The notes beneath the pieces were generated by a model. It was not told the DNA's origin. It saw nothing but the letters and a program-made list of their open reading frames with translations, and did not search any database. A stretch of DNA of 64,000 nucleotides, from assembly GCA_963422665.1 (NCBI GenBank), contig OY730441.1:2466489-2530488 (forward strand), written 5' to 3'. The stretch's first letter is position 1, and every line of letters starts with the position of its first letter. Source of the stretch: Alphaproteobacteria bacterium (GTDB lineage Bacteria > Pseudomonadota > Alphaproteobacteria > Bin95). Shown here one piece after another: positions 13,245-59,989 of the stretch. The translations under genes were made by a program, and so were the position numbers.

Positions 13245-13247
13245 CGC

Positions 13248-13595
13248 TCAGTCCGCCGGCCATACGAGGAAGGCCAACAGCGCGAAGCCAGGTGCGCCTC
13301 CCAAAGCCCACGCCAGCACCCACAAAGTCCCGACCGCCGCCACGCTCACCGCAACACCGACGACCCCGACAGGACTTCCGGCCTCCAGACGGCATTTCAG
13401 CCTCGCCAGCAGCAGCAAGGACAACCCCGGCGCCAACACAACACATATCAACCCGGGAACCCGAAACAGCAACGGCCCCGAACGCAGCAGCAGGTCCTGC
13501 GTCATGCCCGTACAGGTCGCCGCCGGGGAGGGCGAAGCGACGCCCAACCGGGCAACCGCGGCCAAGGCCGCAACGCTCCCGGCAACCGCTCTCAT
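13248..13595 (-). CDS. Small integral membrane protein
   Basis: 115 aa from internal Met overlapping upstream stop (ATGA); 3 TM helices. Confidence 0.35.
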   Translation of the reverse strand: MRAVAGSVAALAAVARLGVASPSPAATCTGMTQDLLLRSGPLLFRVPGLICVVLAPGLSLLLLARLKCRLEAGSPVGVVGVAVSVAAVGTLWVLAWALGGAPGFALLAFLVWPAD

Positions 13596-15599: not shown

Positions 15600-16175
15600 T
15601 CATCGCTCCCCGACTCCCGTCGCCCTCACATGCTTCATCGCCATGGAGGCGCCGTCCTCCGACAGCCTCCCCGCCGGCGCGTCCGGAACCCCGCCCAGCG
15701 CGGCGAACAGCAGCGCCGAGGCCTCTTCGAATGTCCGACCCCGGAAAACCCTTCCGTCATGAACCCGGTAATGGCGGTCCGTCCGCCAGACGACCTCGAC
15801 GCCCGCGCGCGCCCCCCAGCGCGACATGACCGAACGCAGCGTCTCTTCCGCCCACACCCGCCAGTCCGAAGCGCCGGCGCGCGCCGCCGCGAACTCGACC
15901 TCGCTCTCGCGGATGCCGGCCGGCCGGACATGCAGCTCGTCCCCGAAGCGCCGCCATGCCAGGCCCGCATCGAACAGCAGCGAGCGCCAGTCGCCGTAGA
16001 CCCGATCAACGGGCCTGCCGGCCTCCACCCGCCGGTCCCAGCGGAGCTTGACCCCGGCCGGTCCGAGCCTCGCCGCCGTCTCCGCAAGCGACGTCGCATC
16101 CGGCGCATGCAGCAGCATGCCCTCCCGCAGCCCCGGCTCGAAATCGAAACCGGCATCGGCCGGCAGCCAACCCAT
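15600..16175 (-). CDS. Hypothetical protein in T4SS cluster (start uncertain; possible lipobox LSALC if it starts upstream within the IcmT-like gene)
   Basis: 191 aa from Met at 16175, 5 nt after the upstream stop; ordinary composition. Confidence 0.3.
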   Translation of the reverse strand: MGWLPADAGFDFEPGLREGMLLHAPDATSLAETAARLGPAGVKLRWDRRVEAGRPVDRVYGDWRSLLFDAGLAWRRFGDELHVRPAGIRESEVEFAAARAGASDWRVWAEETLRSVMSRWGARAGVEVVWRTDRHYRVHDGRVFRGRTFEEASALLFAALGGVPDAPAGRLSEDGASMAMKHVRATGVGER

Positions 16176-16180
16176 CGCGC

Positions 16181-16453
16181 CTAGAGCCAGTGCAAGTCCG
16201 CAAAGCGCCGATAGCGGTCGAGGAAAAGCGCCCGCCGGCCCCGGCAGCTCGCCGCGCGCACCCGCCTTATCGCCGCCCGCAGCCGGTAGCCCCGCTTCTC
16301 CGCAATCCGGAACGCCACGAACGCCAGCAGCAAGAGGACCGTCGTCGCAATGTTGGGCCAGAACAGCCAGGCGAACATCATCAGCGCCAGGCGCGCGTCG
16401 AACCCCCAGATCCTTACCGCGCGCGCACTGTCGCGCCACACAAGACCGTCCAT
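16181..16453 (-). CDS. IcmT/TraK-like small membrane protein
   Basis: 90 aa, single TM FAWLFWPNIATTVLLLLAFVAF, basic C-terminus; immediately downstream of the DotB-like ATPase as traK follows traJ in R64. Confidence 0.45.
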   Translation of the reverse strand: MDGLVWRDSARAVRIWGFDARLALMMFAWLFWPNIATTVLLLLAFVAFRIAEKRGYRLRAAIRRVRAASCRGRRALFLDRYRRFADLHWL

Positions 16454-16468
16454 TCCTGCCTCCCGCCA

Positions 16469-17596
16469 TCACGACGCCTCGCTCCCCGCCATGCCGTGCG
16501 AGGCGCGAATGCGCGCGAGGTCCCGCGCCCCGATCCGCCCTTCGGCAAACACCGCCTCCGCCTGCACCGCCAGTCCGTGGCCCGTCTCCCCCAAGGCTTC
16601 CGCGATCCGCTGCGGCCAGAACCGCCTCTGCATATCCAGCAGCTCCGCCTTCAGGGCCGCATCGAAGACGAGCCATTCCCGCACCGCCGTCCGCCCGCCC
16701 CCGGGGTTCGGCAGCAGCGCCTGCGTCACCACCAGGTTCAGCATGTCGATCAGCGCCGCGCCGCGCTCGCCGCGCTCGTCCTCCGGAAACTCGCTCAGCA
16801 TCCGGCGGATCGTGTTCGCCACCCCGATCGTGTGCGTCGTGCTGTAGACCGCGATCCCGAAGTCCGCCGCGTTGATCGCGGCCTCCACCGTCTCCCTGTC
16901 CCGCGCCTCGCCCACGATCACCGCCGCCGGGCGCCGACGAAGGCTCGCCCGCAGCCCATCGGCGAAATCCACGAAATGGCGCGGGATCTCCGAGCTCGAC
17001 ATCAGGCTCGCGCCGCCCGTCTCCACACCGTCGAAGACGAACTCGATCGGGGCCTCGTAGCTCTGGATGCGGCCCGCCCCCATCTCCAGAAGCCGCCTGG
17101 TTCCCGCAGCCAGCAGCGTGCTCTTGCCGCTGCCGGGAACGCCCGTGACGAGGTTCAGCCCCGTGCAGGCCTCCAGCGCCCGAACGATCTCATCCTCAAT
17201 GCTCAACTCTTCCAACGTCGGCGGATCGCCGGGCAGGAGCCGCATGGTGATGTTGATCCCGAAGCCGTGCCGCACCTGCACCGGCGAGAGATTGCAGCGG
17301 AACCGGATATCCCGCCCGCGCTCCAGCCCCACCGCATGCCCGCAGTCCACCGCACGGCCCGACCGCAACACGCCGTCCGCGGTCTCCCGCCCGATCTCGC
17401 GCGCGATCCGCTCGACGGTCGTGTTGTCCAGCAAGGCCCGCGTCGCCTGCCTCACCCGGCCATCCACCTCGATCAGCGCCGGCGCCTGCGTCTGGAACGA
17501 CACGTCAGACGCCCGCTCCTCCCAGGCCCACCGGAGGAAATCGTCCAGTTGCTCGACCGGAAACACGTAATCGCCGGGCGCCCAGAGACCGGTCAT
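16469..17596 (-). CDS. DotB/TraJ-like secretion ATPase (PilT/VirB11 family)
   Basis: Walker A GVPGSGKSTLLAAG; Walker B-like VIVGEARD; ~375 aa from MTGLWAPGD; ATGA overlap with upstream gene. Confidence 0.8.
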   Translation of the reverse strand: MTGLWAPGDYVFPVEQLDDFLRWAWEERASDVSFQTQAPALIEVDGRVRQATRALLDNTTVERIAREIGRETADGVLRSGRAVDCGHAVGLERGRDIRFRCNLSPVQVRHGFGINITMRLLPGDPPTLEELSIEDEIVRALEACTGLNLVTGVPGSGKSTLLAAGTRRLLEMGAGRIQSYEAPIEFVFDGVETGGASLMSSSEIPRHFVDFADGLRASLRRRPAAVIVGEARDRETVEAAINAADFGIAVYSTTHTIGVANTIRRMLSEFPEDERGERGAALIDMLNLVVTQALLPNPGGGRTAVREWLVFDAALKAELLDMQRRFWPQRIAEALGETGHGLAVQAEAVFAEGRIGARDLARIRASHGMAGSEAS

Positions 17597-18198
17597 CGCA
17601 CCCGCCTCCTCTGCGGCGGCCGCGCAAGGAGAAGCCGGAACGCCTTTGCCAACGAACATTCGCGTCGGCGCGAAACCGCCGCCAGCGCCCGGTAATCCGC
17701 GGATGCCGCTACAATCGCTCCGATCGCAAGAACCCCACCGACCGGCACGCAGTCTTCCGCCGATCCGAAGAAGCCCCCGCCAAATCCAAAAACAACGAGA
17801 GTCGACCGACAGTCTATAAACCCCGTATCCTCGTCGTCATATCCACCCAACTTCCAGCCCGGAAACCACAGTACGCCAATCCCAAACGCACAGGCACTCG
17901 TGAAAAAACCCAACCGCGACCACAAGCCTCCGCCTTTCAATCCGCACAAAACCAGGGCGACCGGCATCAACAAGGTCAAATAAACCGAACCCTCGTAGTC
18001 CTGCCCATGCTTATCGCGGACCCTTCCTTCCTCTACCGACTCCGTAACGGCCCTGGCGTCGTCATTGCCATCTGCACAGCGCCTTTGCTTCCTTGTTCCT
18101 GCATGCCTGTCCGCACCGCTCAGCTTCGCTGGCTCAGAAGCAAGCGCTTCCGGATATTCATGGTGCTCGTACCCGGCCTCGTGCTCATGGCTCCTCAT
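17593..18198 (-). CDS. Hypothetical membrane protein with His/acidic N-terminus (spans a low-GC patch)
   Basis: MRSHEHEAGYEHHEYPE... then Gly-rich hydrophobic segments; start uncertain. Confidence 0.25.
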   Translation of the reverse strand: MRSHEHEAGYEHHEYPEALASEPAKLSGADRHAGTRKQRRCADGNDDARAVTESVEEGRVRDKHGQDYEGSVYLTLLMPVALVLCGLKGGGLWSRLGFFTSACAFGIGVLWFPGWKLGGYDDEDTGFIDCRSTLVVFGFGGGFFGSAEDCVPVGGVLAIGAIVAASADYRALAAVSRRRECSLAKAFRLLLARPPQRRRVR

Positions 18199-18299: not shown

Positions 18300-19163
18300 T
18301 CACGGCCCCGCCTCCGCCCAAACCGGAAGCGCGGCCCCCGCCGCCCCGTCGTCGTTGCGAAAGACGAACCCACGCCACTGGCGCGAACGAAGCTGAAGCT
18401 CCGCAGGACGCCCGAGCCTCACCAGCGTCTCGCCGACCCGCATCACCCGGCCGTCACCGGCCGTCGCCGAACGGCTGACCTCAACCTTCGGAGCGCCCAC
18501 CATGCGGGCGCCGTGGAGCGTGTTCCAACGCGCGATCCCCTCCAGAAGCGCATTCAGACGATCCAGGTCCGCCGCAAAAATCGCGTCCGCCTGCTTCACC
18601 CCCTCCTGCCAGCCGCGCGCGATCCACCGCGCCCAATCCGACTTCTCCGCGTCGTCGCGGGGGAACAGCACCGATACCGGCGGCTCCGGAACCCGCCAGC
18701 GGCGGAGCAGGAAGTCCCGCCAGTGAGGCGGCGCCGTCGCCAGACGCTCGGATTCCATGATCCGCACCACGCGCGCCGCCGAGGCCGCGCGCCGGCCGTC
18801 GCGCCCCAGCCGCACCGCCTGGCGTGTCTCGCCCACCACCGGCGGCACCAGCACGAACCCGTGCCGGCTCTCCATCAACCGCCTGAACCCGTAGAGCCGG
18901 TCGAGGCTCGCCTCGTGCTTCCCCACGACATCCCGCGCGATCTCCCAGGATCGCCACGCGAGACCTCCCTGCGCCCCATAGGCCAGAGCCGTAGCGCGCA
19001 TCGCCTCCCGGCGCTTCTCCTCGCCGAACTCCACACCCAGGTCGCTGCCCGGCCTTGCCTCCAGCAGTGCCGAAAGGTCCGGCGGCGCTGAGTCCTCCGC
19101 CGCTGCCCACAACGGGACCAGAAGCACGGCCAGGGCCGGAAGGAGGAAGCGCGCGAGCCGCAT
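18300..19163 (-). CDS. Secreted periplasmic protein (DotC-position, no lipobox)
   Basis: 287 aa from MRLARFLLPALAVLLVPLWAAA (signal peptide); Met overlaps upstream stop by 1 nt. Confidence 0.4.
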   Translation of the reverse strand: MRLARFLLPALAVLLVPLWAAAEDSAPPDLSALLEARPGSDLGVEFGEEKRREAMRATALAYGAQGGLAWRSWEIARDVVGKHEASLDRLYGFRRLMESRHGFVLVPPVVGETRQAVRLGRDGRRAASAARVVRIMESERLATAPPHWRDFLLRRWRVPEPPVSVLFPRDDAEKSDWARWIARGWQEGVKQADAIFAADLDRLNALLEGIARWNTLHGARMVGAPKVEVSRSATAGDGRVMRVGETLVRLGRPAELQLRSRQWRGFVFRNDDGAAGAALPVWAEAGP

Positions 19164-19687
19164 CAACCGCCGGTTCCCTGCGCGCGCGGTTCCGCCTCGA
19201 ACCAGTCGAGGCGCACAGTCATGCGGCCGGCGTCCACCGTCAGAAGCGCGCGGTCCGCCGCCTGCATGCCGGCATCCCTGAAGATGTGGATGAGCGGCGC
19301 GTCCTTCGCCTCGATCTCGACCAGCACGGGCGCCGGCGGCGGACGGCCCGCCGTCACCAGCGCATAGCCTGCGCCCGCCGCCAGCTGCCGCGCCAGCTCC
19401 TCCAGCGGCCCGATGTAATCCATCGACACGCGCAGCAAGAGTTCGGGCGGGGTATTCCTCGGTATGTCGGGAGCACTGAGGTCCGCTCCCGCCGAGCGCG
19501 ACTCCGCGAGCTTCGACAGCGCCCGCTCCGCGCGCAACGCCGCTTCCGCAAGACGCGCTTCTGCAGGATCCACGATCGAGCCGTTGCCTTCCTTCGGCGC
19601 CGGGTCCCGGCCGAAATCCAGCGTCTGGCAGCCGCCAAGCGCCAGCGCGCCCACCATGAACGCTCCCGCGGCTGCGCCGATGCTCAT
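19163..19687 (-). CDS. Lipoprotein, DotD/TraH-like by size and position
   Basis: MSIGAAAGAFMVGALALGGC lipobox; ~175 aa; followed by a ~290-aa secreted protein and the DotB-like ATPase (dotD-dotC-dotB order). Confidence 0.45.
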   Translation of the reverse strand: MSIGAAAGAFMVGALALGGCQTLDFGRDPAPKEGNGSIVDPAEARLAEAALRAERALSKLAESRSAGADLSAPDIPRNTPPELLLRVSMDYIGPLEELARQLAAGAGYALVTAGRPPPAPVLVEIEAKDAPLIHIFRDAGMQAADRALLTVDAGRMTVRLDWFEAEPRAQGTGG

Positions 19688-20595
19688 TGCCCTGCGCTCC
19701 CGAGGTCGCGCACCACCAGCCACTTGTTGGGATAAGCCGTTGCCGTGAGCGTCCTGCGCATCGGCGAAACTGCCAGCAGGGCGTCGGCTGCCGCCAGGAA
19801 CCCGGCCTCCTCTGTCTCCCCGGCAGGAAACGCCGCCGCCGCCCCCACCTTGAACCGGCGCTCGCTCTCCCAGGCCAGCTGCCAGCCGGCACGCGCGGCC
19901 CAGGCGCGCAACACGCCCTCGACCGTGCCGTGCGCTTCCGGATCTACTTGCCATGCTGCCGATCCCGCCTGTTCCGCTTCCACCGCCGCAGCAGCATCGG
20001 GATCCACCGGCCTTCCTCCCGGCTCCAACTCCCCCGGAACGCCATCCTCCACACGCCCCTGCGCAGCCTCTCCTTCAGCATCGCCGTCCTCCTCGTCCGT
20101 AAGGGCGGCAAGAACGCCCACCTCGACCCCGCCCGGCATCCGCTCGGGGCGCCGCTGCTCGATATCGCCGTAGCGGTAGAAGACGAGCTGGTCGTCTTCC
20201 CAGCCCCGGTCGTAGCCCGAGAGCCTGGCGAGCTCGTCCAGGACCTCGGGAACCGTCCCGCGCATCGAAAGACCGAACGGCACCGCCGGCTCCAGAACGA
20301 CATCGCCGTCCACGACGCGGCCCGGGCGGTCCTGAAGCACTGCCTTCACCCCGGCCAGGTCCGCAACCAGGCCCGCCAGCTCCCGGAACGGCAGGGGGGC
20401 CAGCTGCTTCACCTCGATCTCGCGCGCCGCAATCTCCGCAGGCAGGTCCTTCGACGGCGCCACGACCGTCACCGTCGCCGCGATCGGCGCCGCCGCCCAG
20501 GGTTTCCGCTGGGCGTCCTGCGCTACTGCCAGCGAAACACTCGCCAGCAGCACGGCAAGCAGCAGGACAAGCAACAGCGCCATTTCCCTCGACAT
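19684..20595 (-). CDS. Secreted protein with C-terminal PilL/TcpQ-like segment (uncertain)
   Basis: signal peptide MSREMALLLVLLLAVLLASVSLAVAQ; acidic middle; C-terminal ...TLTATAYPNKWLVVRDL. Confidence 0.35.
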   Translation of the reverse strand: MSREMALLLVLLLAVLLASVSLAVAQDAQRKPWAAAPIAATVTVVAPSKDLPAEIAAREIEVKQLAPLPFRELAGLVADLAGVKAVLQDRPGRVVDGDVVLEPAVPFGLSMRGTVPEVLDELARLSGYDRGWEDDQLVFYRYGDIEQRRPERMPGGVEVGVLAALTDEEDGDAEGEAAQGRVEDGVPGELEPGGRPVDPDAAAAVEAEQAGSAAWQVDPEAHGTVEGVLRAWAARAGWQLAWESERRFKVGAAAAFPAGETEEAGFLAAADALLAVSPMRRTLTATAYPNKWLVVRDLGSAGQ

Positions 20596-20626
20596 GTCGA
20601 AGATCCGCCGGCGACGCCGGCCTTTG

Positions 20627-21610
20627 CTATCGCTCCGCACCGAACGCCCCCAGGATTCCGTTCCGTTCGAAGACGCCGGCGACTTCGGCCCTGTCGGGTC
20701 CCAGGAACCCGCCCCTTATCCGGTTGCCGGCGACGCCCGCGTCGAACGCCATACTCGCGGTCACGTCGACATCGGGCTTAGTGCCGGGGGGCAGCGGACC
20801 CTCCGTCTCGACCACCGTTCTCGTCACATCGAGCAGGCTGACCGGCACATTCCCGAACCTCGCATCCGGAAAGGACGCTCCGGTCGAGACGCTTGCAATG
20901 TCCGTGAAGGCCGCATCGATCCGTCCGACGACATCGCCGTCTTCGGCATCGTCGCCCAGCGCCACGACCGACCGGTAGGTCAGCACCGCAACGCCCTGCA
21001 GGCACCCCTCTGAAAACCCGCCGGCCTCCGTTACCCCGACCATCCGGCCCCGCCACGTGGCCCTGATATCCTGACCCTCGGCGACCTCCGTCAACCCGCC
21101 GAGCGCCAGCCCGTAGCGGAACTCCCGAAGACCGGCGCCCGAGCCCTCGCGCTCCAGCAGAACGCCGAAACCGCCATGGCGCATCCAGCCGCCCCGGCTC
21201 TGCGCATCGAGGTCCGACGCCCAAACCACGTCGATGCCGCCAATCCGCTCGACAACGCCGGTGCTGGCGAGCGGTCCGGCATTGCCGATGCCGATCCCTC
21301 CTCCGCCCGACCCCGAGCAGCTCAGGCCCGAACATCCGGTGTCATCGAACGCACCGTCGCCGTACCCGCTTTCCTCGCGGGCGCTCGTCGCGAAGAGAAC
21401 ATCCGCACCTCCCAGAGCCGCAGCCGCCCACACGGACGCCGGGCCCCTTTCCATGCCGGGAGCCCCGACCGGCGGTGCTCCCGGCTCCGGTCCCGCCTCT
21501 CCAATCCTCGATCCGGGTCGCGACGGTCCCTCGTCACCCCCGCAGGCCGACAGAACCGCGGCGCAAACCAATAAGGCCACAAACGGACGCCCGTATCTCC
21601 AACACCGCAT
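20627..21610 (-). CDS. Surface lipoprotein with TbpB/fHbp-like C-terminal beta-barrel (paralogue 1)
   Basis: lipobox VALLVCAAVLSAC; C-terminus FDAGVAGNRIRGGFLGPDRAEVAGVFERNGILGAFGAER matches the G-x-F-x-G...E-x-x-G-x-F...GAFGA(K/R) barrel end of TbpB-like lipoproteins. Confidence 0.5.
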   Translation of the reverse strand: MRCWRYGRPFVALLVCAAVLSACGGDEGPSRPGSRIGEAGPEPGAPPVGAPGMERGPASVWAAAALGGADVLFATSAREESGYGDGAFDDTGCSGLSCSGSGGGGIGIGNAGPLASTGVVERIGGIDVVWASDLDAQSRGGWMRHGGFGVLLEREGSGAGLREFRYGLALGGLTEVAEGQDIRATWRGRMVGVTEAGGFSEGCLQGVAVLTYRSVVALGDDAEDGDVVGRIDAAFTDIASVSTGASFPDARFGNVPVSLLDVTRTVVETEGPLPPGTKPDVDVTASMAFDAGVAGNRIRGGFLGPDRAEVAGVFERNGILGAFGAER

Positions 21611-21612
21611 CC

Positions 21613-22623
21613 CTACCTGCCCTCCTGCCTCAGCGCGCCGAAGGATCCGACAATGCCGAGCTGCTCCATCACCCCCGCGATCTCCGGATGACCCGGCCCG
21701 TATAAGCCGCCGGCAATACGGTTCCCCGCAACGCCCGCATCGAACGTCCCGTCCAGGCGAACCGGCACATTGTCGAACCGCAGCCGGGACACGCTGTGCG
21801 GGCGCCGGCCCGCCAGGTCGTAAATGTCGGAGAACACCGCATCCAGCGAACGGTCGCCGGTGTCCCAGGTCAGCACCGCATCGCCCTGCAGCGGCAGATA
21901 GCCATGCGCCGAACTGCAGATCATCACGCCCCGCCAGACGAGATCGAAATCCCGCAGCGGACCTGGCCGCATTCCGGACAGGTCCCCGCCCGCAAGCCCG
22001 TAACGCCACTGCGCCTCCCAGCCGTCATCGACGGACAGCGCATGGCTGAAGACGAACCCGCTACGGTCCGTCCAGGCGCCCAGGCTGCGCATGTCCGGCG
22101 TGTCCGGTACCGCCTCGCGCACGTCCGCCTGCGCTTCCAGCAGCGTGATCCCGTGCCGGGCGGGCCAGGCGCTGGAGGCCCGCGTCACCCAGTTGAGGTC
22201 GTCCCTCGCGAACCCGTCCGGCACCCCGCCCGCATCGCCTGCCGCCGCCAGCGTGCAGGACGCACCCCCGCATGTCGCATCGAACTGGAAGTCCTGCCGT
22301 TCGAGCTCCCGCGCCGGCGCCAGCGGGTCGGGCAGCACCGCCACCTCCGGCGGCAGCTCGGGGCGCTGCCCATGGACGCGCGTCGCCAGAAGCGAGTCCG
22401 TCCGGAACAGGATTTCGGCCATCCGCGCCGCCTGCTCGCCGCCCGTCTCCAGAGGATCGCCTGAAACGGGCGCCGGGCCGGGAGGAGACGGAAGGTGGGG
22501 CTCGTCGCCGGTACCGCATGCCGACAGGAAAAGCCCGACCGCCAGCGCTGTCATTACCGGAACCCGGCAGGACCGCATCGCCGGGCGTCTTTCCCGGAGC
22601 TTCAGGACCATCCCTCCGCTCAT
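21613..22623 (-). CDS. Surface lipoprotein with TbpB/fHbp-like C-terminal beta-barrel (paralogue 2)
   Basis: lipobox ALAVGLFLSAC; C-terminus FDAGVAGNRIAGGLYGPGHPEIAGVMEQLGIVGSFGALRQ, clearly paralogous to 20627..21610. Confidence 0.5.
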   Translation of the reverse strand: MSGGMVLKLRERRPAMRSCRVPVMTALAVGLFLSACGTGDEPHLPSPPGPAPVSGDPLETGGEQAARMAEILFRTDSLLATRVHGQRPELPPEVAVLPDPLAPARELERQDFQFDATCGGASCTLAAAGDAGGVPDGFARDDLNWVTRASSAWPARHGITLLEAQADVREAVPDTPDMRSLGAWTDRSGFVFSHALSVDDGWEAQWRYGLAGGDLSGMRPGPLRDFDLVWRGVMICSSAHGYLPLQGDAVLTWDTGDRSLDAVFSDIYDLAGRRPHSVSRLRFDNVPVRLDGTFDAGVAGNRIAGGLYGPGHPEIAGVMEQLGIVGSFGALRQEGR

Positions 22624-23129
22624 CGCGCAAAGTCCTGCGAAATGGAGGCGGGCCAGGCCGCTGCCCTGGCTTCGCGCCACATTCGACCGACCGTCCGAAC
22701 CGCTCCCGCAAATCCGGTCTGCTGTCCGGCTGCGACGGCCGCCAGCCAGCCCCCGGCCGACAGCCCCAGCACAGACATCGCCCAAAGCGGCATCGTCAGT
22801 GCGACGAAACCCAGCTCCACGATCCCGCTCATCAGGGCGCTCGCAGCAGCCAGAACCAGCACGGCCGCCAGCTCCGGCTGGCCCCAGGGCCCGCGGGGCG
22901 GGCGCCCCCGACCCCGAAGCACCCGGCAAACCCGCAGACCGACCGGGTAACCCAGCCCTACTGTGCCCGCATAAACCGCCAGAGCCACCGGAACCGCGGC
23001 AGCAGCCCAGAGACGCAAGTCCAGCACAACGAAGAACGCAGCCAGTTCCACGCCCGCCAGCAGCGCGGCCGCAGCACACATCGCCAGCCCGAGCCCTGCC
23101 TGCTCGATAGCGGCGAGCGCCGGGCTCAC
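22620..23129 (-). CDS. Integral membrane protein, GTG start (GTGA overlap)
   Basis: 170 aa, 4 TM helices. Confidence 0.35.
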   Translation of the reverse strand: MSPALAAIEQAGLGLAMCAAAALLAGVELAAFFVVLDLRLWAAAAVPVALAVYAGTVGLGYPVGLRVCRVLRGRGRPPRGPWGQPELAAVLVLAAASALMSGIVELGFVALTMPLWAMSVLGLSAGGWLAAVAAGQQTGFAGAVRTVGRMWREARAAAWPASISQDFAR

Positions 23130-23809
23130 CGCCGCTCCTCCCGGGCCCAGGCGCGGGACGCCATTTCCCGGCCCATCGACATCACTGCACGGATCGCCTG
23201 CGACAGGCTCAGCCGGCGACGGGTCGCCACCACCGCCAGACCGCCGCCGATCGACGCCCCGCACACCAGCAACGCCGTCTGGCCGAGCCAGAACGCCATC
23301 TTCTGCAGAACGACATCGCCCGAGAACAGGAGAAACCAGGCTGCCAGCGCCAGTGCGAGCCCGGCCTCGCCGAGACGCGGCGGCGCACCGAGCCATCGCC
23401 CCCAACAGCTATAGGCCAAGTAGAACAGTCCCGCCACGAACGGGTATCCTGCAAGCACGATCACGGCTCGCAGAACGCCCCTCTCCGGTGGAAAGAGCAG
23501 GACCGCGGCCATCGCCACGCTGACGGCCGCCGCGCTCGCGACCATACCGTGACCGCCATGATAGACCCCGACTGGCTCAGGACCTGCATCGCCGGTACTC
23601 TTGCCCTGTTCGGGCTCTCTTTCGGATGCGGCCTGATCGGCTATTCCTTCTTCTGGATCGCCGGACTTGCGAACGCGGTCGGCGCCACGATCCCCGCCGT
23701 TATTACCGGCGCCTTCGGGCTCGTTCTCGGCGTCATGTCCGTGTTCCTGCTGATCAGGGCCTTCGCCGCCGTCGACAACTGCATCATGCGAGCCGGTCAT
23801 CGCCTTCAT
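23126..23809 (-). CDS. Integral membrane protein with acidic N-terminal tail
   Basis: N-terminal D/E/G-rich ~85 aa then 4 TM helices. Confidence 0.35.
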   Translation of the reverse strand: MKAMTGSHDAVVDGGEGPDQQEHGHDAENEPEGAGNNGGDRGADRVRKSGDPEEGIADQAASEREPEQGKSTGDAGPEPVGVYHGGHGMVASAAAVSVAMAAVLLFPPERGVLRAVIVLAGYPFVAGLFYLAYSCWGRWLGAPPRLGEAGLALALAAWFLLFSGDVVLQKMAFWLGQTALLVCGASIGGGLAVVATRRRLSLSQAIRAVMSMGREMASRAWAREERR

Positions 23810-23813
23810 CTCC

Positions 23814-24404
23814 TCACCCGAGCCCGATATCGGCGAGACCCGCAGCCGTCACCGCGAGAACGAGGCCCGCGCCCACGGCCATGCCGGGCCCGAGCGGCAC
23901 ATGGCCCCGGAGCCACGACCGGCCCCGCCGGCGCTGGACCCAGGCATGGCGGCCGAGCGCACAAGCCGAGCCGACCGAAAGCGCCCAGAGAAGGCCGAAG
24001 GGCCCGAGCAGCCATCCCAGCGCCGCGAACAGCAACACGTCGCCCGGATAGAACGGCCAGCGCCGGCCGAGAGCCTCTGCAACCGTCAGCGGCACGGCCC
24101 CGATCAGCAATCCGGCACCGGCGCCCGCCATCGCCCGCAACAGGCCGTCGGCCGCATCCGGGCCGACCGTCTGCGCCTGCCAGAGCGCGCCCGCGCCCAG
24201 GAGCAGGAACAGCCACCAAGGGTCTATGCGGAAACGCTGCCCGTCGATGCTGCCGATCCGCCATAGCGCGCCGCAGGCCCAGGCGAGCACCACCAGCGAG
24301 AGCGTCGCCGACCGAGGGGCGCCGGCCAATATCGCCATGCCTCCGAACAGGAACACGATGACGGCGAAAACCGGCGCCGCGTCGCGGGACTTGATCGAGG
24401 TCAT
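23814..24404 (-). CDS. Prepilin peptidase (A24 family; TadV/CpaA/PilU-like)
   Basis: polytopic; motif WPFYPGDVLLFAALG matching the GGDVKL-type catalytic-Asp loop; ~195 aa from MTSIKSRD. Confidence 0.65.
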   Translation of the reverse strand: MTSIKSRDAAPVFAVIVFLFGGMAILAGAPRSATLSLVVLAWACGALWRIGSIDGQRFRIDPWWLFLLLGAGALWQAQTVGPDAADGLLRAMAGAGAGLLIGAVPLTVAEALGRRWPFYPGDVLLFAALGWLLGPFGLLWALSVGSACALGRHAWVQRRRGRSWLRGHVPLGPGMAVGAGLVLAVTAAGLADIGLG

Positions 24405-24802
24405 CGCAGATCGTCCTCCCACACGCCGAACGTCGCCGGCAGGAGGCGGCACCAGCGCTCCAGCTCCTCTTCGCCGCAGATCTCCGGGCGCAGCGTCCTC
24501 ACCGCCGAGCCGACTTCGGCCCGCTCCCGGTTCCATGCCTCGAGTTCCTTCTGGACGGCCAGGAGACGGCGCATCCCGGCAACCTCGCGCGCCAGCGCCT
24601 CGCGGACCTTCAGACCCTCGAGACGCGTCGCCGCCCAGCCGCCCGGAGCCGGCGGCGCACCCTGCTTCGTGGCGCTGTCCTGTGCGGGAGCCTCGTTCTC
24701 TGCCGGGACCGCGTCCTGCGTCTGGGCCGCACCAGGCAACGGCATCGCCCCCGCCAGAACGAGCAGGACCGCGAGACCCGAAATCCGCGCCGCCATCAGC
24801 AT
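24401..24802 (-). CDS. Small secreted periplasmic protein
   Basis: signal peptide MAARISGLAVLLVLAGAMPLPGAAQ; 130 aa. Confidence 0.35.
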   Translation of the reverse strand: MLMAARISGLAVLLVLAGAMPLPGAAQTQDAVPAENEAPAQDSATKQGAPPAPGGWAATRLEGLKVREALAREVAGMRRLLAVQKELEAWNRERAEVGSAVRTLRPEICGEEELERWCRLLPATFGVWEDDLR

Positions 24803-25872
24803 CCCGAGCAGCTCCCGACCGTGAGCGACCCGAACGAGCCCGTGCCGGTGACCGTGACAGACCCGTTCACATTGGCGCCCGCGGCCGTGAGGTTGGCGCC
24901 GGCCTCGATGTTCGCGGCCTCGACGTCGCCTGCGATATCGGCGCTCGCCGCCTCCAGTGCGCCCGTCGCTTCCACCGCGTCCGCATTGACAATGCCCGTG
25001 AACGCCGCGTCGCCCCGGAACACCAGGCCGTCCGGCACCGTGAAACTCCCCATGACCTCGACCGAGCCCGCCGTCGTCGCCGTGCCCACGGTGAGCGCCC
25101 GGTCGATCCGGAACTCGCCGGCCCGCATCACCCGGTGCACCTGAAGCTCCTCGGCCGTCAGCACCCGCACGCCCACCAGGTCGTTGCCGTTCATGTCGAG
25201 GTCGGTCTCCATGCGCGCGGAGTCCGGACAGCCGGCCCTGACCCGCCGGAACACGGCGTCACCGCACACGCTCTCCCGGTCGAGCTGCCGGTAGACGGCC
25301 AGCGCCCGCGCGCGCGGATGGCCGCCGGCAGCCGCCCGGAACGCCGTCAGGTCCTCCTGCACGGTCGGCCCCAGCAACACGCCCGACCCGTCCACCACGC
25401 CCAGCGCCTGCCGGCCGCGCGCCTCGAACACCGCATTCGCCGGAAAGCGCGTGTCATTGGCGTCGGCCAGCTGCATCGACAAGAGCCGCACATCGCCCCC
25501 GCCGAGCGAGACCGCCCAGGCCTGGAGCGGGCGCTTCATCGCGTCGCCCGCCTCGTCGAAGCCCTGCGGCAACAGCCTGTCGGTCCTGAGGGCGCCGATA
25601 TCGATCCGCCGCGCCGTCCCGGCCGCCAGGCCTGCATAGGTTCCGTATGCCGAGCGCACATGGCTCTCGACCGCCTGAGCCAGCACCACGAGCTTCCGCG
25701 CCGCGCCAACCGCGTTCGAGGCCGCGATGCGGCCCTGCAGCCAGATCGCGAAGCCGAGCGCGATCACCACCAGCACGATCACCGCCACCAGCGCGCCCAC
25801 CGGCGTCATGCCCCGCCAGCGCCCGATCCATAGGCGCCGCGCGAACCCCGGTCTGCGCATGGGTCCCCTCAT
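24796..25872 (-). CDS. PilV-like minor pilin/adhesin paralogue 1 (prepilin-type leader)
   Basis: basic 21-aa leader ending RG then hydrophobic MTPVGALVAVIVLVVIALGFAIW; shared ARMETD motif and Cys-containing C-terminus LTVGSCSGC; ATGA overlap with paralogue 2. Confidence 0.45.
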   Translation of the reverse strand: MRGPMRRPGFARRLWIGRWRGMTPVGALVAVIVLVVIALGFAIWLQGRIAASNAVGAARKLVVLAQAVESHVRSAYGTYAGLAAGTARRIDIGALRTDRLLPQGFDEAGDAMKRPLQAWAVSLGGGDVRLLSMQLADANDTRFPANAVFEARGRQALGVVDGSGVLLGPTVQEDLTAFRAAAGGHPRARALAVYRQLDRESVCGDAVFRRVRAGCPDSARMETDLDMNGNDLVGVRVLTAEELQVHRVMRAGEFRIDRALTVGTATTAGSVEVMGSFTVPDGLVFRGDAAFTGIVNADAVEATGALEAASADIAGDVEAANIEAGANLTAAGANVNGSVTVTGTGSFGSLTVGSCSGC

Positions 25873-27113
25873 CGCACCACCGGCTCGCAGCCGGTGCAGT
25901 CGCCCGTCGTGACGACGCCCGTGAACGATCCCGTATTCGCGCCGAGACCGCCGTCGATCCGAAGCCTCCGCGCCCGGGCATTGCCCGAGGCCTCGAGCCC
26001 GCCGCCGCCGTCCAGGCGCCCGGCCACCTCCAGACTGCCCGCGCCCACTTCGCCCGCCACCGCGAGCGCCGTGTCCGTGGCGGTGAGCCCGGTGCCGACC
26101 GACAGCAGCTGCGGGATGTTGAACGCCTGCGCCGGCGCGCCCGTATGGCCGAACCGGAACCCGCCATCGGCCCGAAACCTCGTCGCCGGAATGTCGCCCC
26201 CGAACGCCATGCTGCCGGGCTGGCCGGTCCGGCCCACCGTCACATTGCCCGCGATCTCCGCCGGTGCCCCGCCCGTCCCCGCAAAGCGCCCCTCCCGGTT
26301 GGTGCCGACATCGACCCCTTCGACATTGCCGGCGTTCCGAACCTCGTAACAGCGCCGGTCGTTCGCCAGCGCCGCATTGCGGCAGTCCTCGCCGACGACG
26401 ACCGCGACCGGGCTCTCGATCTCGCCCGCCGGCAGCAGCGCCTGGCCGACGGCGCCCGCATTCGGGCCGAACACGAAATCCGTCTCCATGCGCGCAAGCT
26501 CCGGACGCCCGCCCACGGCGCGCCGGTGGAGCCGGTCCCCGTCATGCTCCACCGCATGGTCCGCCGTCGCGAACAGCGAGCCCGCCGGCAAGGCCCCGAG
26601 CACCGCGCGCACCGCCGGCAGCCGGCCGTGCATCGCCGTCGCATCGCCGCCAACCGCGCCCACAAGGTCGAGGCCGCCCATCACTGCGCCCGCGCGCAAT
26701 GCCGGCGCCCGGAACGAAAGCTCCGGGCCCGAAAGCGAGCACGCCGCCATCGGAACCCCGTCAACCATGACAGCGCCATAGGCAGCCGTCGCCACCGTGC
26801 CCCCGGCGCGACCGACCGTGCCGAGGCCGGCCGGGAGGAGGGACCAGCCCCTTAGCTGCGCCGGCGTCACGACACCCGCCGCCGTCACCCGGCCCGACTG
26901 GACCGCCCGGTGGACCGCCGTGCAGGTCATCGCCCAGATGCGCCCACGCTCGCGGTCGATCTCCGCCAGACGCAGCGCCTCCTGCTGGCGCTCCCAGGCC
27001 GCCAGCACGAACACCACCGTCGCGGCCAGGAACAGCGCGCCCACAGGCAGCGCCGCGCCGCGGCCCGCGCCCCGGCGCAGCCGACCGACCAGCGATGATC
27101 GCAGGCGCGCCAC
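25869..27113 (-). CDS. PilV-like minor pilin/adhesin paralogue 2
   Basis: leader ...RLRRGAGRG then ALPVGALFLAATVVFVLAAW; ARMETD motif; C-terminus TTGDCTGCEPVVR. Confidence 0.45.
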   Translation of the reverse strand: MARLRSSLVGRLRRGAGRGAALPVGALFLAATVVFVLAAWERQQEALRLAEIDRERGRIWAMTCTAVHRAVQSGRVTAAGVVTPAQLRGWSLLPAGLGTVGRAGGTVATAAYGAVMVDGVPMAACSLSGPELSFRAPALRAGAVMGGLDLVGAVGGDATAMHGRLPAVRAVLGALPAGSLFATADHAVEHDGDRLHRRAVGGRPELARMETDFVFGPNAGAVGQALLPAGEIESPVAVVVGEDCRNAALANDRRCYEVRNAGNVEGVDVGTNREGRFAGTGGAPAEIAGNVTVGRTGQPGSMAFGGDIPATRFRADGGFRFGHTGAPAQAFNIPQLLSVGTGLTATDTALAVAGEVGAGSLEVAGRLDGGGGLEASGNARARRLRIDGGLGANTGSFTGVVTTGDCTGCEPVVR

Positions 27114-27116
27114 CGG

Positions 27117-27656
27117 TCACCCGAACACGAACGTCAGCGCGTTGCCCGCCGTGCCTTTATTGCAATTGGTGTTGAGCCAACCGATGGTGCGCACCGTGGG
27201 CGCGGTGGTCGGCACGGTCGTTGGCGCCGTCGCGGCCACATTCATGATCACGATGCCCGAGCCCGCCCGCGTCCGGCCCGCATAGGCTTGGCCCAGGTCC
27301 TTGCACGTCTCGTTGTCCAGATCGTCAAACGTGATCGCGAAACGACCGCTGTTCCCACGGATCGTCACCGCACCGCCGAAGGCATGCTGGATCGTCTCCG
27401 AGCCGGCAGAGCCAACCTTCGCGCCGTCCGGGATCTTCCCGAACCCGCGAACGATCGGCACGAGGTCCGCGTTCGCGCTAGGGCCATAGCTGGCCTGGCC
27501 CGAATAGATCCGCTCGACGCTCGCGCGCAGCTGGTTCAGCAGCTTGATCGACTCGCCCTCCTTCAGGCTCGCCGTGATCCCGTTGTAGATCCCGACGACC
27601 GCGACGATCGCCACAAGGCCCGCGATTACCGACAGCAAGACTCCGACCGGGTTCAT
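27117..27656 (-). CDS. Major pilin candidate (type IVB/PilS-like), no obvious leader
   Basis: 179 aa; N-terminus MNPVGVLLSVIAGLVAIVAVVGIYNGITAS shares the xPVGxL start with the two PilV-like proteins; Thr/Pro-rich C-terminal region; directly downstream of the platform gene. Confidence 0.5.
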   Translation of the reverse strand: MNPVGVLLSVIAGLVAIVAVVGIYNGITASLKEGESIKLLNQLRASVERIYSGQASYGPSANADLVPIVRGFGKIPDGAKVGSAGSETIQHAFGGAVTIRGNSGRFAITFDDLDNETCKDLGQAYAGRTRAGSGIVIMNVAATAPTTVPTTAPTVRTIGWLNTNCNKGTAGNALTFVFG

Positions 27657-27668
27657 GTCCCTCTCATC

Positions 27669-28727
27669 TCAGTAGCTTCGTTCCACCTGGGTCGAGATGT
27701 CGAAACTCACCCACATGATCAGGATCATCTGCGCCGTCCCGACACCCATCAGCACCGTGTTCAGCACGGCGGCCCGCATCCGCATCAACGCCTCCGAGCG
27801 CTCCACCCAGCGATCCACGAACCCGGCAAGCGTCTCTTCCCAGTCCGCGCGCCCGTCCATCGCGCCCGCAACCGCCACCAGCGTCTCGTCCGGGAACCCC
27901 TGGCGCGCCGCCGAGAGCGCCGAGCCGAAGCCCAGCCCCTCGTTCAGCATCAGCTCCCGCACACGGCGCATGCGGCTCCGCACATAGGGCGACGCGCCGC
28001 GCTCGAACTGGACGAACGTGTCCCGGTTCAGGTCCACGCCCATGCGCAGGAACTCCACGCACACGAACAGGAACCCGCTCCCCGACAGCGTCCGGTAAAG
28101 CGAAAAGGGCGGGATCCGGTCCGCAAACACCCGCCCCCGTCCCGTCCAGCGCAGCACAACCAGCCGGAAGGCCGCCAGGAACAGCACGAACGCGATCCCG
28201 ATCTCGACGTCGTTCCCGTAGAAACCCTCCGAGACCCAGGCGAGCGAGCGCGACCAGATATCCCAGCGCGACCGGTCGCTCACCTCCAGCATCGCCGGAA
28301 TGACCTCGTAGCCCATGAACCACGTCATCCCCACGCAGCCAACGAAGATCACCAAAGGCATGAACATCGCGTTCGCCACCGCGCGCACCTGCTTCGAGCG
28401 CATCTCCGCCACCCGCGCCGCCGCCAGGAACAGCACCTCCGCACGCGCCCGGCCCAGCCCGTAGAAGACCATCGCCTCCGACGCCGGAACCCAGCGCGAG
28501 AGTTCCACCGCGAAATCGTCGCCGCCCGACGCCAGCGCCGCCTGCCAGTCCCGCAGCATCCGCACCCGGATCGTCTCGCGCGACTTCGCCTGCATCACCA
28601 CGCCGAGCGCGTCCCGCAGCCCGAGGCCGCCCTGGAGCAGGTCGTGCAGCAGATACCAGATGTCGATCCGCGCCTCGGTCCGGGCCGCCAGGAGCCGGCG
28701 CAGGAACAACCACCGGAAACCCCTCAT
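27669..28727 (-). CDS. Pilus platform protein, GspF/PilC/PilR(R64) family
   Basis: 352 aa from MRGFRWLFLRR (ATGA overlap with ATPase gene); two T2SS-F-like repeats, each with a cytoplasmic helical domain and TM helices. Confidence 0.6.
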   Translation of the reverse strand: MRGFRWLFLRRLLAARTEARIDIWYLLHDLLQGGLGLRDALGVVMQAKSRETIRVRMLRDWQAALASGGDDFAVELSRWVPASEAMVFYGLGRARAEVLFLAAARVAEMRSKQVRAVANAMFMPLVIFVGCVGMTWFMGYEVIPAMLEVSDRSRWDIWSRSLAWVSEGFYGNDVEIGIAFVLFLAAFRLVVLRWTGRGRVFADRIPPFSLYRTLSGSGFLFVCVEFLRMGVDLNRDTFVQFERGASPYVRSRMRRVRELMLNEGLGFGSALSAARQGFPDETLVAVAGAMDGRADWEETLAGFVDRWVERSEALMRMRAAVLNTVLMGVGTAQMILIMWVSFDISTQVERSY

Positions 28728-34229: not shown

Positions 34230-34239
34230 CCTCTTGCTC

Positions 34240-59837: not shown

Positions 59838-59989
59838 GGTCGGGCGCCCAGCGGGCGGGATCGTGGAAGAGCGTGAGGGCCGCCTCGGCCTCCTGCATGA
59901 AGGGGAGGTCGGCGAAGTCCCGTTCCTCGCGCCCCGAGAGCTTGATGCCGACCGGGGCCATCAGCGCCATCCGTCCTGTGCGCGAGCGG

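What the first reader, a model, noticed from the sequence alone, without database searches (positions are those of the whole stretch)
20627..22623. Tandem TbpB/fHbp-like beta-barrel surface lipoproteins inside the T4SS cluster
Two paralogous lipoproteins end in the hallmark C-terminal barrel strand pattern FDAGVAGNRI.GG..GP...E.AGV.E..GI.G.FGA. This pattern is typical of Slam-translocated surface lipoproteins (TbpB, HpuA, fHbp). Their placement between Dot/Icm-like genes and the pilus genes, with coupled starts, suggests a role in mating-pair surface interactions or exclusion rather than nutrient capture.
Basis: partly seen in the sequence, partly recalled or inferred. Interest (0 to 1): 0.6.

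Follow-up and report, generated by a model that had tools for sequence, protein, structure and literature searches.

The report
TbpB-fold lipoprotein pair in conjugation island
Two neighbouring genes in a chromosomal conjugation island of an uncultured alphaproteobacterium encode outer-membrane lipoproteins with the same fold as the transferrin-binding and factor-H-binding surface proteins of Neisseria, and the pair is a conserved part of the island's mating-pilus gene block, a setting in which this protein family has not been described.

Summary
Window 21610-20627 (LipoA, 327 aa) and 22623-21613 (LipoB, 336 aa), both on the minus strand, are paralogues (30% identity, E 4e-20). Each has an L-S-A-C lipobox and the quoted C-terminal motif.

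Profile searches and two confident AlphaFold models place both in the TbpB-like family: a handle domain plus an eight-stranded barrel. Every significant PDB fold match belongs to this family (TbpB/LbpB lobes, hemophilin/HphA, fHbp, NHBA, PmSLP).

The B-then-A pair sits between the type IVb pilus genes (PilS, PilV x2, a likely PilU) and TcpQ-DotD-DotC-DotB. This holds in the window and in the four related loci that extend that far. Four shorter metagenome contigs carry the pair or LipoB next to pil genes. Identity and dS values show the pair is inherited with the pilus block, with a recombination break just after LipoA. Both genes are under purifying selection.

No Slam gene lies in the window or the related loci. 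Slam does occur beside distant relatives and in the chromosome of a close relative of the host.

So the fold and placement are shown, while surface display and a mating role are inferred. This is a new variant of a known kind, of moderate interest.

The parts
20627..21610 (-). LipoA: 327-aa lipoprotein. Signal peptide and lipobox LSAC (residues 1-23, Cys23), Pro/Gly-rich disordered tether (about 24-56), beta-rich handle with a conserved Cys93/Cys98 pair (about 57-179), eight-stranded TbpB-type barrel (about 180-327) with a clade-specific long hairpin insertion (about 255-292).
   Evidence: invariant L20, C23, C93, C98; AF2 pLDDT 81.3, pTM 0.79; Foldseek: TbpB C-lobe 5kkx_B, E 1.7e-4, prob 1.0; dN/dS 0.37
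21613..22623 (-). LipoB: 336-aa lipoprotein (321 aa if started at 22578). Lipobox LSAC, short tether, helix plus beta-rich handle with a conserved Cys pair (C103/C108 in 321-aa numbering), eight-stranded barrel (about residues 210-317 in 321-aa numbering, roughly window 21951-21616).
   Evidence: P0181 is the public gene call; AF2 pLDDT 87.2, pTM 0.83; Foldseek: hemophilin 7re4_A E 1.6e-6; TbpB C-lobe; fHbp; NHBA; PmSLP; dN/dS 0.30
20630..20746 (-). C-terminal motif of LipoA, FDAGVAGNRIRGGFLGPDRAEVAGVFERNGILGAFGAER (the last barrel strands). It is the most conserved segment of the family.
   Evidence: aligned to TbpB ...GGFYGP.A.E.aG.F...GaFGAKRQ; 81% mean pairwise identity against 63-67% for the rest
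21628..21744 (-). C-terminal motif of LipoB, FDAGVAGNRIAGGLYGPGHPEIAGVMEQLGIVGSFGALR.
19684..20595 (-). TcpQ-domain protein, 31 nt downstream of LipoA. It is the first gene of the Dot/Icm-like block. The recombination break lies in the spacer before it.
   Evidence: PF10671, 1.4e-8; dS 0.72 against 0.39 for LipoA
19163..19651 (-). DotD/TraH-type lipoprotein.
   Evidence: PF16816, 1.5e-26
18300..19190 (-). DotC/TraI-type T4BSS outer-membrane protein.
   Evidence: PF16932, 1.4e-56
22620..23809 (-). Two overlapping ORFs for multi-pass membrane proteins directly upstream of LipoB (23126-23809 and 22620-23405). This slot is hypervariable between related islands.
23814..24404 (-). Polytopic membrane protein in the PilU position. 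I read it as a prepilin-peptidase-like protein from its sequence motifs only; no profile hit.
   Evidence: no Pfam or NCBIfam hit; conserved 46-88% in related loci
24796..27113 (-). Two PilV-like minor pilin genes (24796-25872 and 25869-27113).
   Evidence: Shufflon_N PF04917, E 1.6e-4 and 1.9e-3, both below the Pfam cut-off
27117..27656 (-). PilS-type type IVb prepilin.
   Evidence: PF08805, 6.8e-8

Best explanation
LipoA and LipoB are outer-membrane lipoproteins, each built like one lobe of TbpB. From the N-terminus they have a Sec/lipobox signal, a flexible Pro/Gly-rich tether, a beta-rich handle braced by a disulphide, and a C-terminal eight-stranded barrel. They are fixed accessory genes of the type IVb thin-pilus block of a chromosomally integrated Dot/Icm-type (MPF-I) conjugative element found in uncultured Alphaproteobacteria.

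Most likely route and role:
1. They are lipidated at Cys23 (A) and at the equivalent Cys in B. With Gly at position +2, the Lol pathway sends them to the outer membrane.
2. Their barrel is then recognised by a host-encoded Slam translocon, which displays them on the donor surface beside the pilus secretin and the T4SS outer-membrane complex.
3. There the conserved handle domains bind a conserved partner, either the pilus or minor pilin or an envelope component of the mating partner, and so help form or stabilise mating pairs.

Shown: gene structure, paralogy, lipobox, fold family, conserved position, co-inheritance with the pil genes, purifying selection.
Inferred: Slam-mediated surface exposure and the mating function.
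For: Fold and family:
- Pfam TbpB_B_D is the only family hit, and 18 of 31 family members match it.
- The family profile hits PDB TbpB chains at E 6e-5.
- AF2 models have pLDDT 81 and 87.
- The high-probability Foldseek hits are TbpB, LbpB, hemophilin/HphA, fHbp, NHBA and PmSLP. PmSLP is released as 'a Slam-dependent surface lipoprotein'.
- The handle plus eight-stranded barrel is the stated hallmark of Slam-dependent surface lipoproteins (PMC5449769).

Lipoprotein features: L20 and C23 are invariant in 21 sequences. Residues 24-56 are disordered in the model.

Conserved module:
- A B-like gene then an A-like gene lies directly upstream of TcpQ-DotD-DotC-DotB in L001, L007, L008 and L009.
- The pair or LipoB lies next to pil genes in L013, L014 and L016.
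- A and B orthologues share 15 contig lengths.

Linked to pil rather than tra:
- In L001, pil genes are 77-93% identical and Lipo 78-81%, but Dot genes only 45-58%.
- In L008 and L009, Lipo genes are 50-53% identical, L008's PilU 46%, and Dot genes 67-86%.
- dS is 0.19-0.39 for pil and Lipo genes, against 0.72-0.84 for TcpQ and DotB.
- The closest plasmid T4BSS (Roseomonas), which has no pil genes upstream of DotD, also has no Lipo genes there.

Selection: dN/dS is 0.30-0.37. The handle is conserved to about the same degree as the barrel, which argues for a conserved partner.

Slam plausibility:
- The distant relative P0037 lies directly after a Slam gene (PF04575). L032 has Slam 5 kb away.
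- A Slam gene is chromosomal on a 5.38-Mb contig. A contig of that same length carries a housekeeping protein at least 90% identical to the window's.
Against: - No Slam homologue lies in the 64-kb window or within 10 kb of the pair in the related T4SS loci. This was tested with tblastn and with an HMM built from 120 Slam sequences, which recovered the positive controls. A mobile element that needs a host translocon would be constrained in host range.
- The host genome outside the window could not be searched. The top 120 of 2350 Slam hits include none from contigs that carry the pair.
- There is no experimental or co-variation evidence for any binding partner.
- Other T4BSS/thin-pilus systems lack these proteins: tblastn of LipoA against 72,556 plasmids found nothing. 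They are therefore not a general requirement for conjugation.
- AF2 and Foldseek TM-scores are modest (0.3-0.5 full length, up to 0.69 for the barrel alone).
Confidence: 0.45

Rival explanations
1. The proteins face the periplasm. Tethered to the inner leaflet of the outer membrane, they act as structural or pilotin-like accessories of the PilN secretin or of the DotC/DotD/DotH outer-membrane complex, much as DotK or the TcpQ-type proteins encoded next to them do. No Slam is needed.
For: No Slam lies in the island or in related islands. The immediate neighbours are outer-membrane assembly factors: TcpQ domain, DotD, DotC. The handle is as conserved as the barrel and both genes are under purifying selection, as expected for a fixed machine contact. 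Translational coupling suggests stoichiometric co-production.
Against: The PDB matches that are documented Slam substrates are surface-displayed or secreted, and none of the matches is described as periplasmic (PMC5449769). The most conserved part is the C-terminal barrel motif shared with those proteins. Family members occur next to Slam. T4BSS and thin-pilus systems work without such proteins elsewhere.
Confidence: 0.25
2. They are surface-exclusion or self-recognition determinants. Like TraT of F, a surface lipoprotein on cells carrying the element blocks unproductive mating with cells that already carry it. They might act together with the variable membrane proteins encoded just upstream.
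For: The predicted fold is that of surface lipoproteins. The pair sits beside a hypervariable slot of small membrane proteins, which is typical of exclusion or immunity loci. It also lies at the junction of two modules where accessory genes accumulate: SNase-barrel, ExbD.
Against: The lipoproteins themselves are not hypervariable. They are 50-83% identical across islands, with the handle no more variable than the barrel and dN/dS 0.30-0.37. Exclusion specificity determinants usually diverge sharply. L008 keeps the pair but lacks the membrane ORFs.
Confidence: 0.15
3. They are cargo: hemophore-like or nutrient-binding surface lipoproteins carried by the element for the host's benefit, unrelated to DNA transfer.
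For: The best fold match of LipoB is the haem-binding hemophilin (7re4_A, E 1.6e-6). The wider family consists mostly of chromosomal stand-alone genes with no T4SS nearby. One related island has an ExbD gene right after the LipoA orthologue.
Against: The pair is wedged between pil and tra genes with overlapping or 2-nt junctions and no promoter or terminator. It keeps this exact position in every related island examined down to 50% identity. None of the roughly 50 window ORFs scanned with Pfam matched a TonB-dependent receptor family or Slam. The element's ordinary cargo region is elsewhere.
Confidence: 0.1

Closest known systems
TbpB / LbpB lobes (Pfam PF01298 TbpB_B_D), Neisseriaceae and Pasteurellaceae
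   Same: [quoted passage not shown] The C-terminal motif G-G-F-Y/F-G-P-x-A/H-x-E-x-A/G-G-x-F ... G-A-F-G-A-x-R aligns residue for residue. Fold matches have probability 1.0.
   Different: One lobe here, not two. Sequence identity is only 10-16%. There is no adjacent TonB-dependent receptor or Slam. The genes sit in a conjugation and pilus gene block of a free-living-type alphaproteobacterium rather than in an iron-uptake operon of a host-restricted pathogen. No sign of the strong handle hypervariability typical of TbpB.
Hemophilin / HphA (Slam-dependent hemophores; 7re4, 6om5, 8glo)
   Same: Single handle plus barrel of about the same size. This is the best structural match to LipoB (E 1.6e-6, TM 0.41/0.51).
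   Different: Hemophilins are secreted soluble proteins, are not lipidated, and are encoded with Slam and a haem receptor. Haem-binding residues were not examined here.
fHbp, NHBA C-domain, PmSLP (single-barrel Slam-type surface lipoproteins)
   Same: Lipoprotein with one C-terminal eight-stranded barrel. fHbp, like these genes, is not encoded next to its Slam (my knowledge of Neisseria). Fold matches: NHBA TM up to 0.69 on the barrel, PmSLP 9b3e.
   Different: Those bind host complement regulators or heparin. There is no link to DNA transfer.
TraT of F-like plasmids
   Same: A plasmid-encoded, surface-exposed outer-membrane lipoprotein inside a transfer region that acts at the mating-pair stage (established knowledge).
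   Different: Unrelated fold and sequence. This is only a functional analogy for the exclusion rival.
IncI1 R64 thin-pilus and Dot/Icm-like transfer region (pilI-V, traE-K)
   Same: Same overall layout: a type IVb pilus operon ending in pilS/pilU/pilV, followed by traH (DotD), traI (DotC) and traJ (DotB) (gene order from my knowledge; DotC homologues in 3662 plasmids).
   Different: No LipoA homologue in 72,556 plasmids. The lipoprotein pair and the TcpQ-domain gene fill the junction in this alphaproteobacterial lineage only.

Membership tests
TbpB-like (Slam-type) surface lipoproteins | N-terminal signal peptide with lipobox cysteine | tested here: met
   L-S-A-C in both. L20 and C23 are invariant in 21 aligned sequences, with Gly at +2. 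A weak NCBIfam hit to a lipoprotein signal model covers the same segment.
TbpB-like (Slam-type) surface lipoproteins | C-terminal eight-stranded beta-barrel homologous to PF01298 / the fHbp barrel | tested here: met
   Pfam TbpB_B_D: A scores 19.7 bits (below the cut-off of 26), B has no hit alone, but 18 of 31 family members match, best 4.2e-7. The L001 orthologue scores 33.2 bits, above the cut-off. Profile against PDB TbpB gives E 6e-5. AF2 plus Foldseek.
TbpB-like (Slam-type) surface lipoproteins | Beta-rich handle domain preceding the barrel | tested here: met
   AF2 strands 71-177 (A) and 62-198 (B) at pLDDT mostly above 85. Full-length alignments to TbpB lobes and hemophilin.
TbpB-like (Slam-type) surface lipoproteins | A Slam (DUF560, PF04575) translocon encoded next to the gene | tested here: not met
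   No hit in six-frame ORFs of the window or of L001, L007-L009 and L013-L016 with an HMM of 120 Slam sequences (E threshold 10 for the window and L001-L012; 1e-5 for L013-L052). Positive controls L005, L011, L012 and L032 were recovered at E<1e-190. tblastn best E 0.54. Adjacency is not universal in the family: only 2 of about 40 distant relatives examined have Slam nearby.
TbpB-like (Slam-type) surface lipoproteins | A Slam translocon somewhere in the same genome | not testable with these tools
   The host's 4.59-Mb contig is not readable here. The top 120 of 2350 Slam hits contain no contig carrying the pair. Indirect support: a 5,378,753-bp contig carries Slam, and a contig of that same length carries a housekeeping protein at least 90% identical to the window's.
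TbpB-like (Slam-type) surface lipoproteins | Exposure on the cell surface | not testable with these tools
   Needs protease shaving, flow cytometry or a heterologous Slam co-expression assay.
Bipartite TonB-dependent receptor systems (TbpA/TbpB type) | Partner TonB-dependent transporter encoded alongside | tested here: not met
   None of the roughly 50 window ORFs scanned with Pfam returned a TonB-dependent receptor or Plug family. Only an ExbD gene, in one related island, L007.
Known T4BSS (Dot/Icm, IncI Tra) or type IVb pilus components | Sequence homology to a named Dot/Icm/Tra/Pil family | tested here: not met
   No Pfam or NCBIfam T4SS or pilus family hits either protein. Absent from all PLSDB plasmids and from the closest plasmid T4BSS.

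The most novel reading that the evidence does not exclude
Slam-type (TbpB-fold) surface lipoproteins have been recruited as dedicated parts of a conjugative mating apparatus. In this reading the pair is displayed on the donor surface and works with the type IVb thin pilus to recognise or hold recipient cells. In sister islands the same barrel also carries a nuclease domain to the surface. That would give this lipoprotein family a first role in DNA transfer. It would also define a new accessory component class for Dot/Icm-type conjugation systems, and it would mean that a mobile element relies on, or bypasses, the host's Slam translocon.
Probability: 0.3. Interest if true: 0.75.

Novelty: new variant of a known kind. 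Interest (0 to 1): 0.55.

Why it matters
TbpB-like surface lipoproteins are known almost entirely as nutrient-capture or immune-evasion factors of host-restricted pathogens, usually studied with their Slam translocon and a TonB-dependent receptor. This pair has the same fold but is a conserved, translationally coupled part of the pilus block of a conjugative element in environmental Alphaproteobacteria. Relatives of the element attach a nuclease to the same barrel.

If the pair acts in mating, three things follow:
- The functional range of the family widens.
- There is a tractable candidate for how thin-pilus, Dot/Icm-type elements make surface contacts.
- It becomes a question whether a mobile element's host range is set by the recipient's Slam.

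The exhaustive profile search also shows the family is large (2155 representative clusters) and almost entirely unannotated.

Tried and rejected
- megablast of window 12-32 kb and tblastn of LipoA against PLSDB plasmids: no match.
- I tried to show Slam in the same genome by matching contig lengths in a Slam homologue search. Only 120 of 2350 hits are listed and none is from a contig carrying the pair, so this is inconclusive.
- A shared contig length of 8198 between a Slam hit and a LipoA-cluster member suggested co-location. L011 has no LipoA/LipoB homologue by tblastn, so I dropped it.
- NCBIfam on ten neighbours gave no names except a weak PilP hit.
- The search for related loci with the broad alignment A2 failed for lack of conserved columns. 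I repeated it with A3.
- Three literature searches found no paper linking TbpB-like lipoproteins to T4SS or thin pili.
- I rejected the idea that the C-terminal motif is a generic hairpin. It aligns specifically to TbpB chains, and the whole predicted fold matches the family.
- I rejected spurious ORFs in a high-GC sequence: both have conserved orthologues with dN/dS of 0.30-0.37.
Full report
**What is there.** The window is about 70% G+C, and from 1 to about 40 kb nearly all genes are on the minus strand. Inside the given coordinates lie two minus-strand genes.
- LipoA runs 21610..20627 (327 aa) and starts MRCWRYGRPFVALLVCAAVLSAC|GGDEG.
- LipoB runs 22623..21613 (336 aa). This is the public gene call P0181. 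In-frame ATGs at 22611, 22578 and 22554 are alternatives. Its lipobox reads ...LAVGLFLSAC|GTGDE.
- The LipoB start at 22623 overlaps the stop of the upstream ORF (ATGA). The LipoA start follows the LipoB stop after 2 nt. The next gene starts 31 nt after the LipoA stop.
- No promoter-like site occurs in 15-28 kb, and terminator-like sites are at chance level.
- The two proteins are paralogues: 30% identity over their full length, E 4e-20. Both carry the quoted C-terminal motif.

**Fold and family.**
- Pfam gives a single sub-threshold hit for LipoA: TbpB_B_D PF01298, E 1.3e-3, 19.7 bits against a cut-off of 26, covering the last 33 residues. LipoB has no hit alone.
- At family level the signal is clear. 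18 of 31 aligned relatives hit PF01298 and nothing else, best E 4.2e-7.
- A profile of 21 relatives hits TbpB chains of the PDB at E 6e-5, aligning GGFfGPgraEvaGvfE...GaFGAkr to TbpB's GGFYGPkAeEmaGkF...GaVFGAKRQ.
- AlphaFold2 models are confident: A has pLDDT 81.3 and pTM 0.79; B has pLDDT 87.2 and pTM 0.83. Each shows a disordered N-terminal segment after the lipid-bearing Cys, a beta-rich handle, and a C-terminal barrel.
- Foldseek against the PDB gave, at probability about 1, members of one structural family: TbpB C- and N-lobes, LbpB, hemophilin/HphA, fHbp, the NHBA C-domain and PmSLP. The best values were E 1.7e-4 for A and 1.6e-6 for B. TM-scores were 0.3-0.5 for the whole chain and up to 0.69 on the barrel alone.
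[quoted passage not shown] They proposed that the barrel carries the translocation signal (PMC5449769).

The fold assignment stands.

**Size of the family.** A word-index search found only 37 (A) and 32 (B) relatives. The exhaustive profile search found 2155 representative clusters at E<=1e-3 and 426 at E<=1e-30. Most are proteins of about 300 aa, and some contain several tandem copies. None of the hits carries a source name, and most have no precomputed Pfam domain. The family is essentially unannotated.

**Context in the window.** Pfam on neighbouring ORFs gives the following, in transcription order on the minus strand:
- a weak secretin match (38082-39899)
- a PilQ-type ATPase (28724-30409)
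- PilS prepilin (27117-27656)
- two PilV-like proteins (25869-27113 and 24796-25872)
- a small secreted ORF
- a polytopic protein in the PilU position (23814-24404, no profile hit)
- two membrane ORFs (23126-23809 and 22620-23405)
- LipoB, then LipoA
- a TcpQ-domain protein (19684-20595)
- DotD (19163-19651)
- DotC/TraI (18300-19190)
- a DotB-type ATPase (16469-17659)
- a second TcpQ-domain protein
- DotI/IcmL (12235-13614)
- a TrbI/DotG-like protein

Beyond about 40 kb the genes are ordinary metabolism. No tRNA gene is present. So this is a chromosomally integrated MPF-I (Dot/Icm-like, IncI-like) conjugative element with a type IVb thin pilus. Housekeeping proteins of the window cluster at 90% identity or more with proteins named only 'Alphaproteobacteria bacterium' MAG.

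**Is the placement conserved?** Yes.
- In a MAG contig (L001) and three metagenome contigs (L007, L008, L009), a B-like gene and then an A-like gene lie directly upstream of TcpQ-DotD-DotC-DotB-IcmT.
- Four further metagenome contigs (L013-L016) carry the pair or LipoB, three of them next to pil genes.
- A and B orthologues turn up on contigs of 15 identical lengths.

Relatives below about 40% identity are different.
- 36 of the 40 metagenome loci, plus L003, L004 and L006, are stand-alone chromosomal genes with no T4SS genes nearby.
- The T4SS-embedded pair is therefore a distinct clade recruited from a larger chromosomal family. LipoB is the more typical member. LipoA carries a clade-specific insertion of about 30 residues in the barrel.

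**Which module do they belong to?** Percent identity to the window proteins splits sharply at the LipoA|TcpQ junction.
- L001: PilS 77, PilV 89 and 93, PilU 81-88, LipoB 81, LipoA 78. But TcpQ 58, DotD 54, DotC 45, DotB 53.
- L008: the reverse. PilU 46 and Lipo 53 against Dot genes 70-86.
- L009: Lipo 50-51 against Dot genes 61-81.
- Synonymous divergence, window versus L001: 0.19-0.39 for pil and Lipo genes, 0.72-0.84 for TcpQ and DotB.

The pair is thus inherited with the pilus block, and a recombination break falls in the 31-nt spacer after LipoA. In line with this, the nearest plasmid T4BSS (Roseomonas mucosa, DotC 39%) has neither pil nor Lipo genes upstream of DotD. LipoA has no tblastn match in 72,556 plasmids.

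**Selection.** dN/dS is 0.37 (A) and 0.30 (B), within the range of neighbouring pil genes (0.19-0.41). Among orthologues the handle (63% for A, 76% for B) is about as conserved as the barrel (67%, 78%). The last strands are the most conserved (81%, 85%). This does not look like an antigenically variable or specificity-determining protein. It suggests a conserved binding partner.

**Slam.**
- tblastn with an alphaproteobacterial Slam found nothing in the window. Nor did an HMM built from 120 Slam homologues, in the window or in the T4SS-type loci. The HMM scored the positive controls at E<1e-190.
- Family members can be Slam-linked. P0037 lies immediately after a Slam gene together with a 760-aa lipoprotein (L005). 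L032 has Slam 5 kb away.
- Most family members, however, are Slam orphans.
- Slam is abundant in this lineage: 2350 hits, one of them named Rhodospirillales. One copy lies on a 5,378,753-bp contig (L012). A contig of that same length carries a protein at least 90% identical to the window's carbamoyl-amino-acid hydrolase.
- Whether the window's own genome has Slam could not be tested.

**How it most likely works.**
- Shown: two co-transcribed, translationally coupled lipoproteins with a tether, a handle and a TbpB-type barrel; fixed at the distal end of the thin-pilus block; under purifying selection.
- Inferred: Lol-dependent delivery to the outer membrane (Gly at +2), recognition of the barrel by a host Slam, and display on the donor surface. 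There the handles would bind a conserved partner (a pilus component or recipient envelope) to help form or stabilise mating pairs. I put this at about 0.45.
- Rivals: a periplasm-facing structural or pilotin-like role at the secretin or T4SS outer-membrane complex (0.25); TraT-like surface exclusion, perhaps with the hypervariable membrane ORFs upstream (0.15); hemophore-like cargo unrelated to transfer (0.10).

**Known or new?** The fold family is well known. I found no description of such proteins in T4SS or thin-pilus loci in three full-text searches or in a 2025 T4SS review. They match no named Dot/Icm, Tra or Pil family. I rate this a new variant of a known kind, of moderate interest.

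**Side observation that bears on mechanism.** Sister islands carry a third member in which a staphylococcal-nuclease domain replaces the handle in front of the same barrel. It occurs either as a separate lipoprotein (P0183) or fused to the C-terminus of the LipoA orthologue (L001 641 aa, P0186 639 aa, P0041 630 aa). This modularity fits the idea that the barrel is an export or anchoring module and the N-terminal domain is the functional payload.

Noticed in passing
window 22620-23809 (- strand); L001 8224-9452; L007 7095-8975; L009 3-572: The slot between the PilU-position gene and LipoB holds 0-3 small multi-pass membrane proteins that are hypervariable. Flanking genes are 75-88% identical between islands, but these ORFs share at most about 51% identity or none detectable, and they fall into at least two weakly related families. 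L008 has none. The two window ORFs are weak paralogues of each other (38% over 60 aa). This could be an exclusion or immunity-type slot.
   Followed up: partly
L001 10487-12412; proteins P0183, P0186, P0041, P0028: A staphylococcal-nuclease (PF00565) domain joined to a TbpB-type barrel. It occurs as a stand-alone lipoprotein (358 aa) or fused behind the LipoA orthologue (630-641 aa) in several independent contigs, so the fusion is not an assembly error. It is absent from the window.
   Followed up: partly
L007 10986-11459: An ExbD/TolR-family gene (PF02472, E 1.2e-11) lies directly after the LipoA orthologue in one related island, followed by an unannotated 213-aa ORF. This hints at a TonB-type energy link, but it is seen in one locus only.
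   Followed up: no
window 20596-20626 (spacer between LipoA and TcpQ): The 31-nt spacer contains a perfect GC-rich palindrome (GCCGGCG-n-CGCCGGC, 20607-20621). It coincides with the recombination break: dS doubles across it.
   Followed up: partly
window 33291-34760 (- strand): A class I SAM-dependent methyltransferase domain (PF08241, 7e-21) is encoded inside the pilus gene region, where local G+C falls to 0.63. It looks like an insertion into the pil operon.
   Followed up: no
window 24796-27113 (- strand): Two tandem PilV-like genes, with only weak Shufflon_N matches. I did not search for shufflon repeats or an rci recombinase, so two fixed PilV variants may replace a shufflon here.
   Followed up: no
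window 15600-16676 and 19684-20595 (- strand): Two separate TcpQ-domain (PF10671) proteins lie within the Dot/Icm-like block, one on each side of DotD-DotC-DotB. Both are conserved in related islands.
   Followed up: partly
L011 557-8196: A Slam gene followed by two lipoproteins with TbpB-like C-terminal motifs sits next to a repressor, an excisionase-like HTH protein and F-type TraL/TraE genes. This is a second, unrelated case of Slam-type lipoproteins beside conjugation genes.
   Followed up: no
L003/L004 11933-13216; L006 9915-11408: In two unrelated chromosomal contexts, a distant LipoB-like lipoprotein lies close to a PLP-dependent decarboxylase (PF00282). In L006 the two are adjacent. 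In L003 and L004 one minus-strand ORF lies between them.
   Followed up: no
protein P0038 (4105 aa), P0180 (4685 aa), P0053, P0109: The representative library contains giant predicted proteins with up to 14 tandem copies of this lipoprotein family. I did not determine whether they are real or merged gene calls.
   Followed up: no
window 59059-60297 (- strand): An ORF with a DDE_Tnp_1-associated domain (PF13808, 4e-20) lies in a low-GC patch (0.63) of the flanking chromosome.
   Followed up: no
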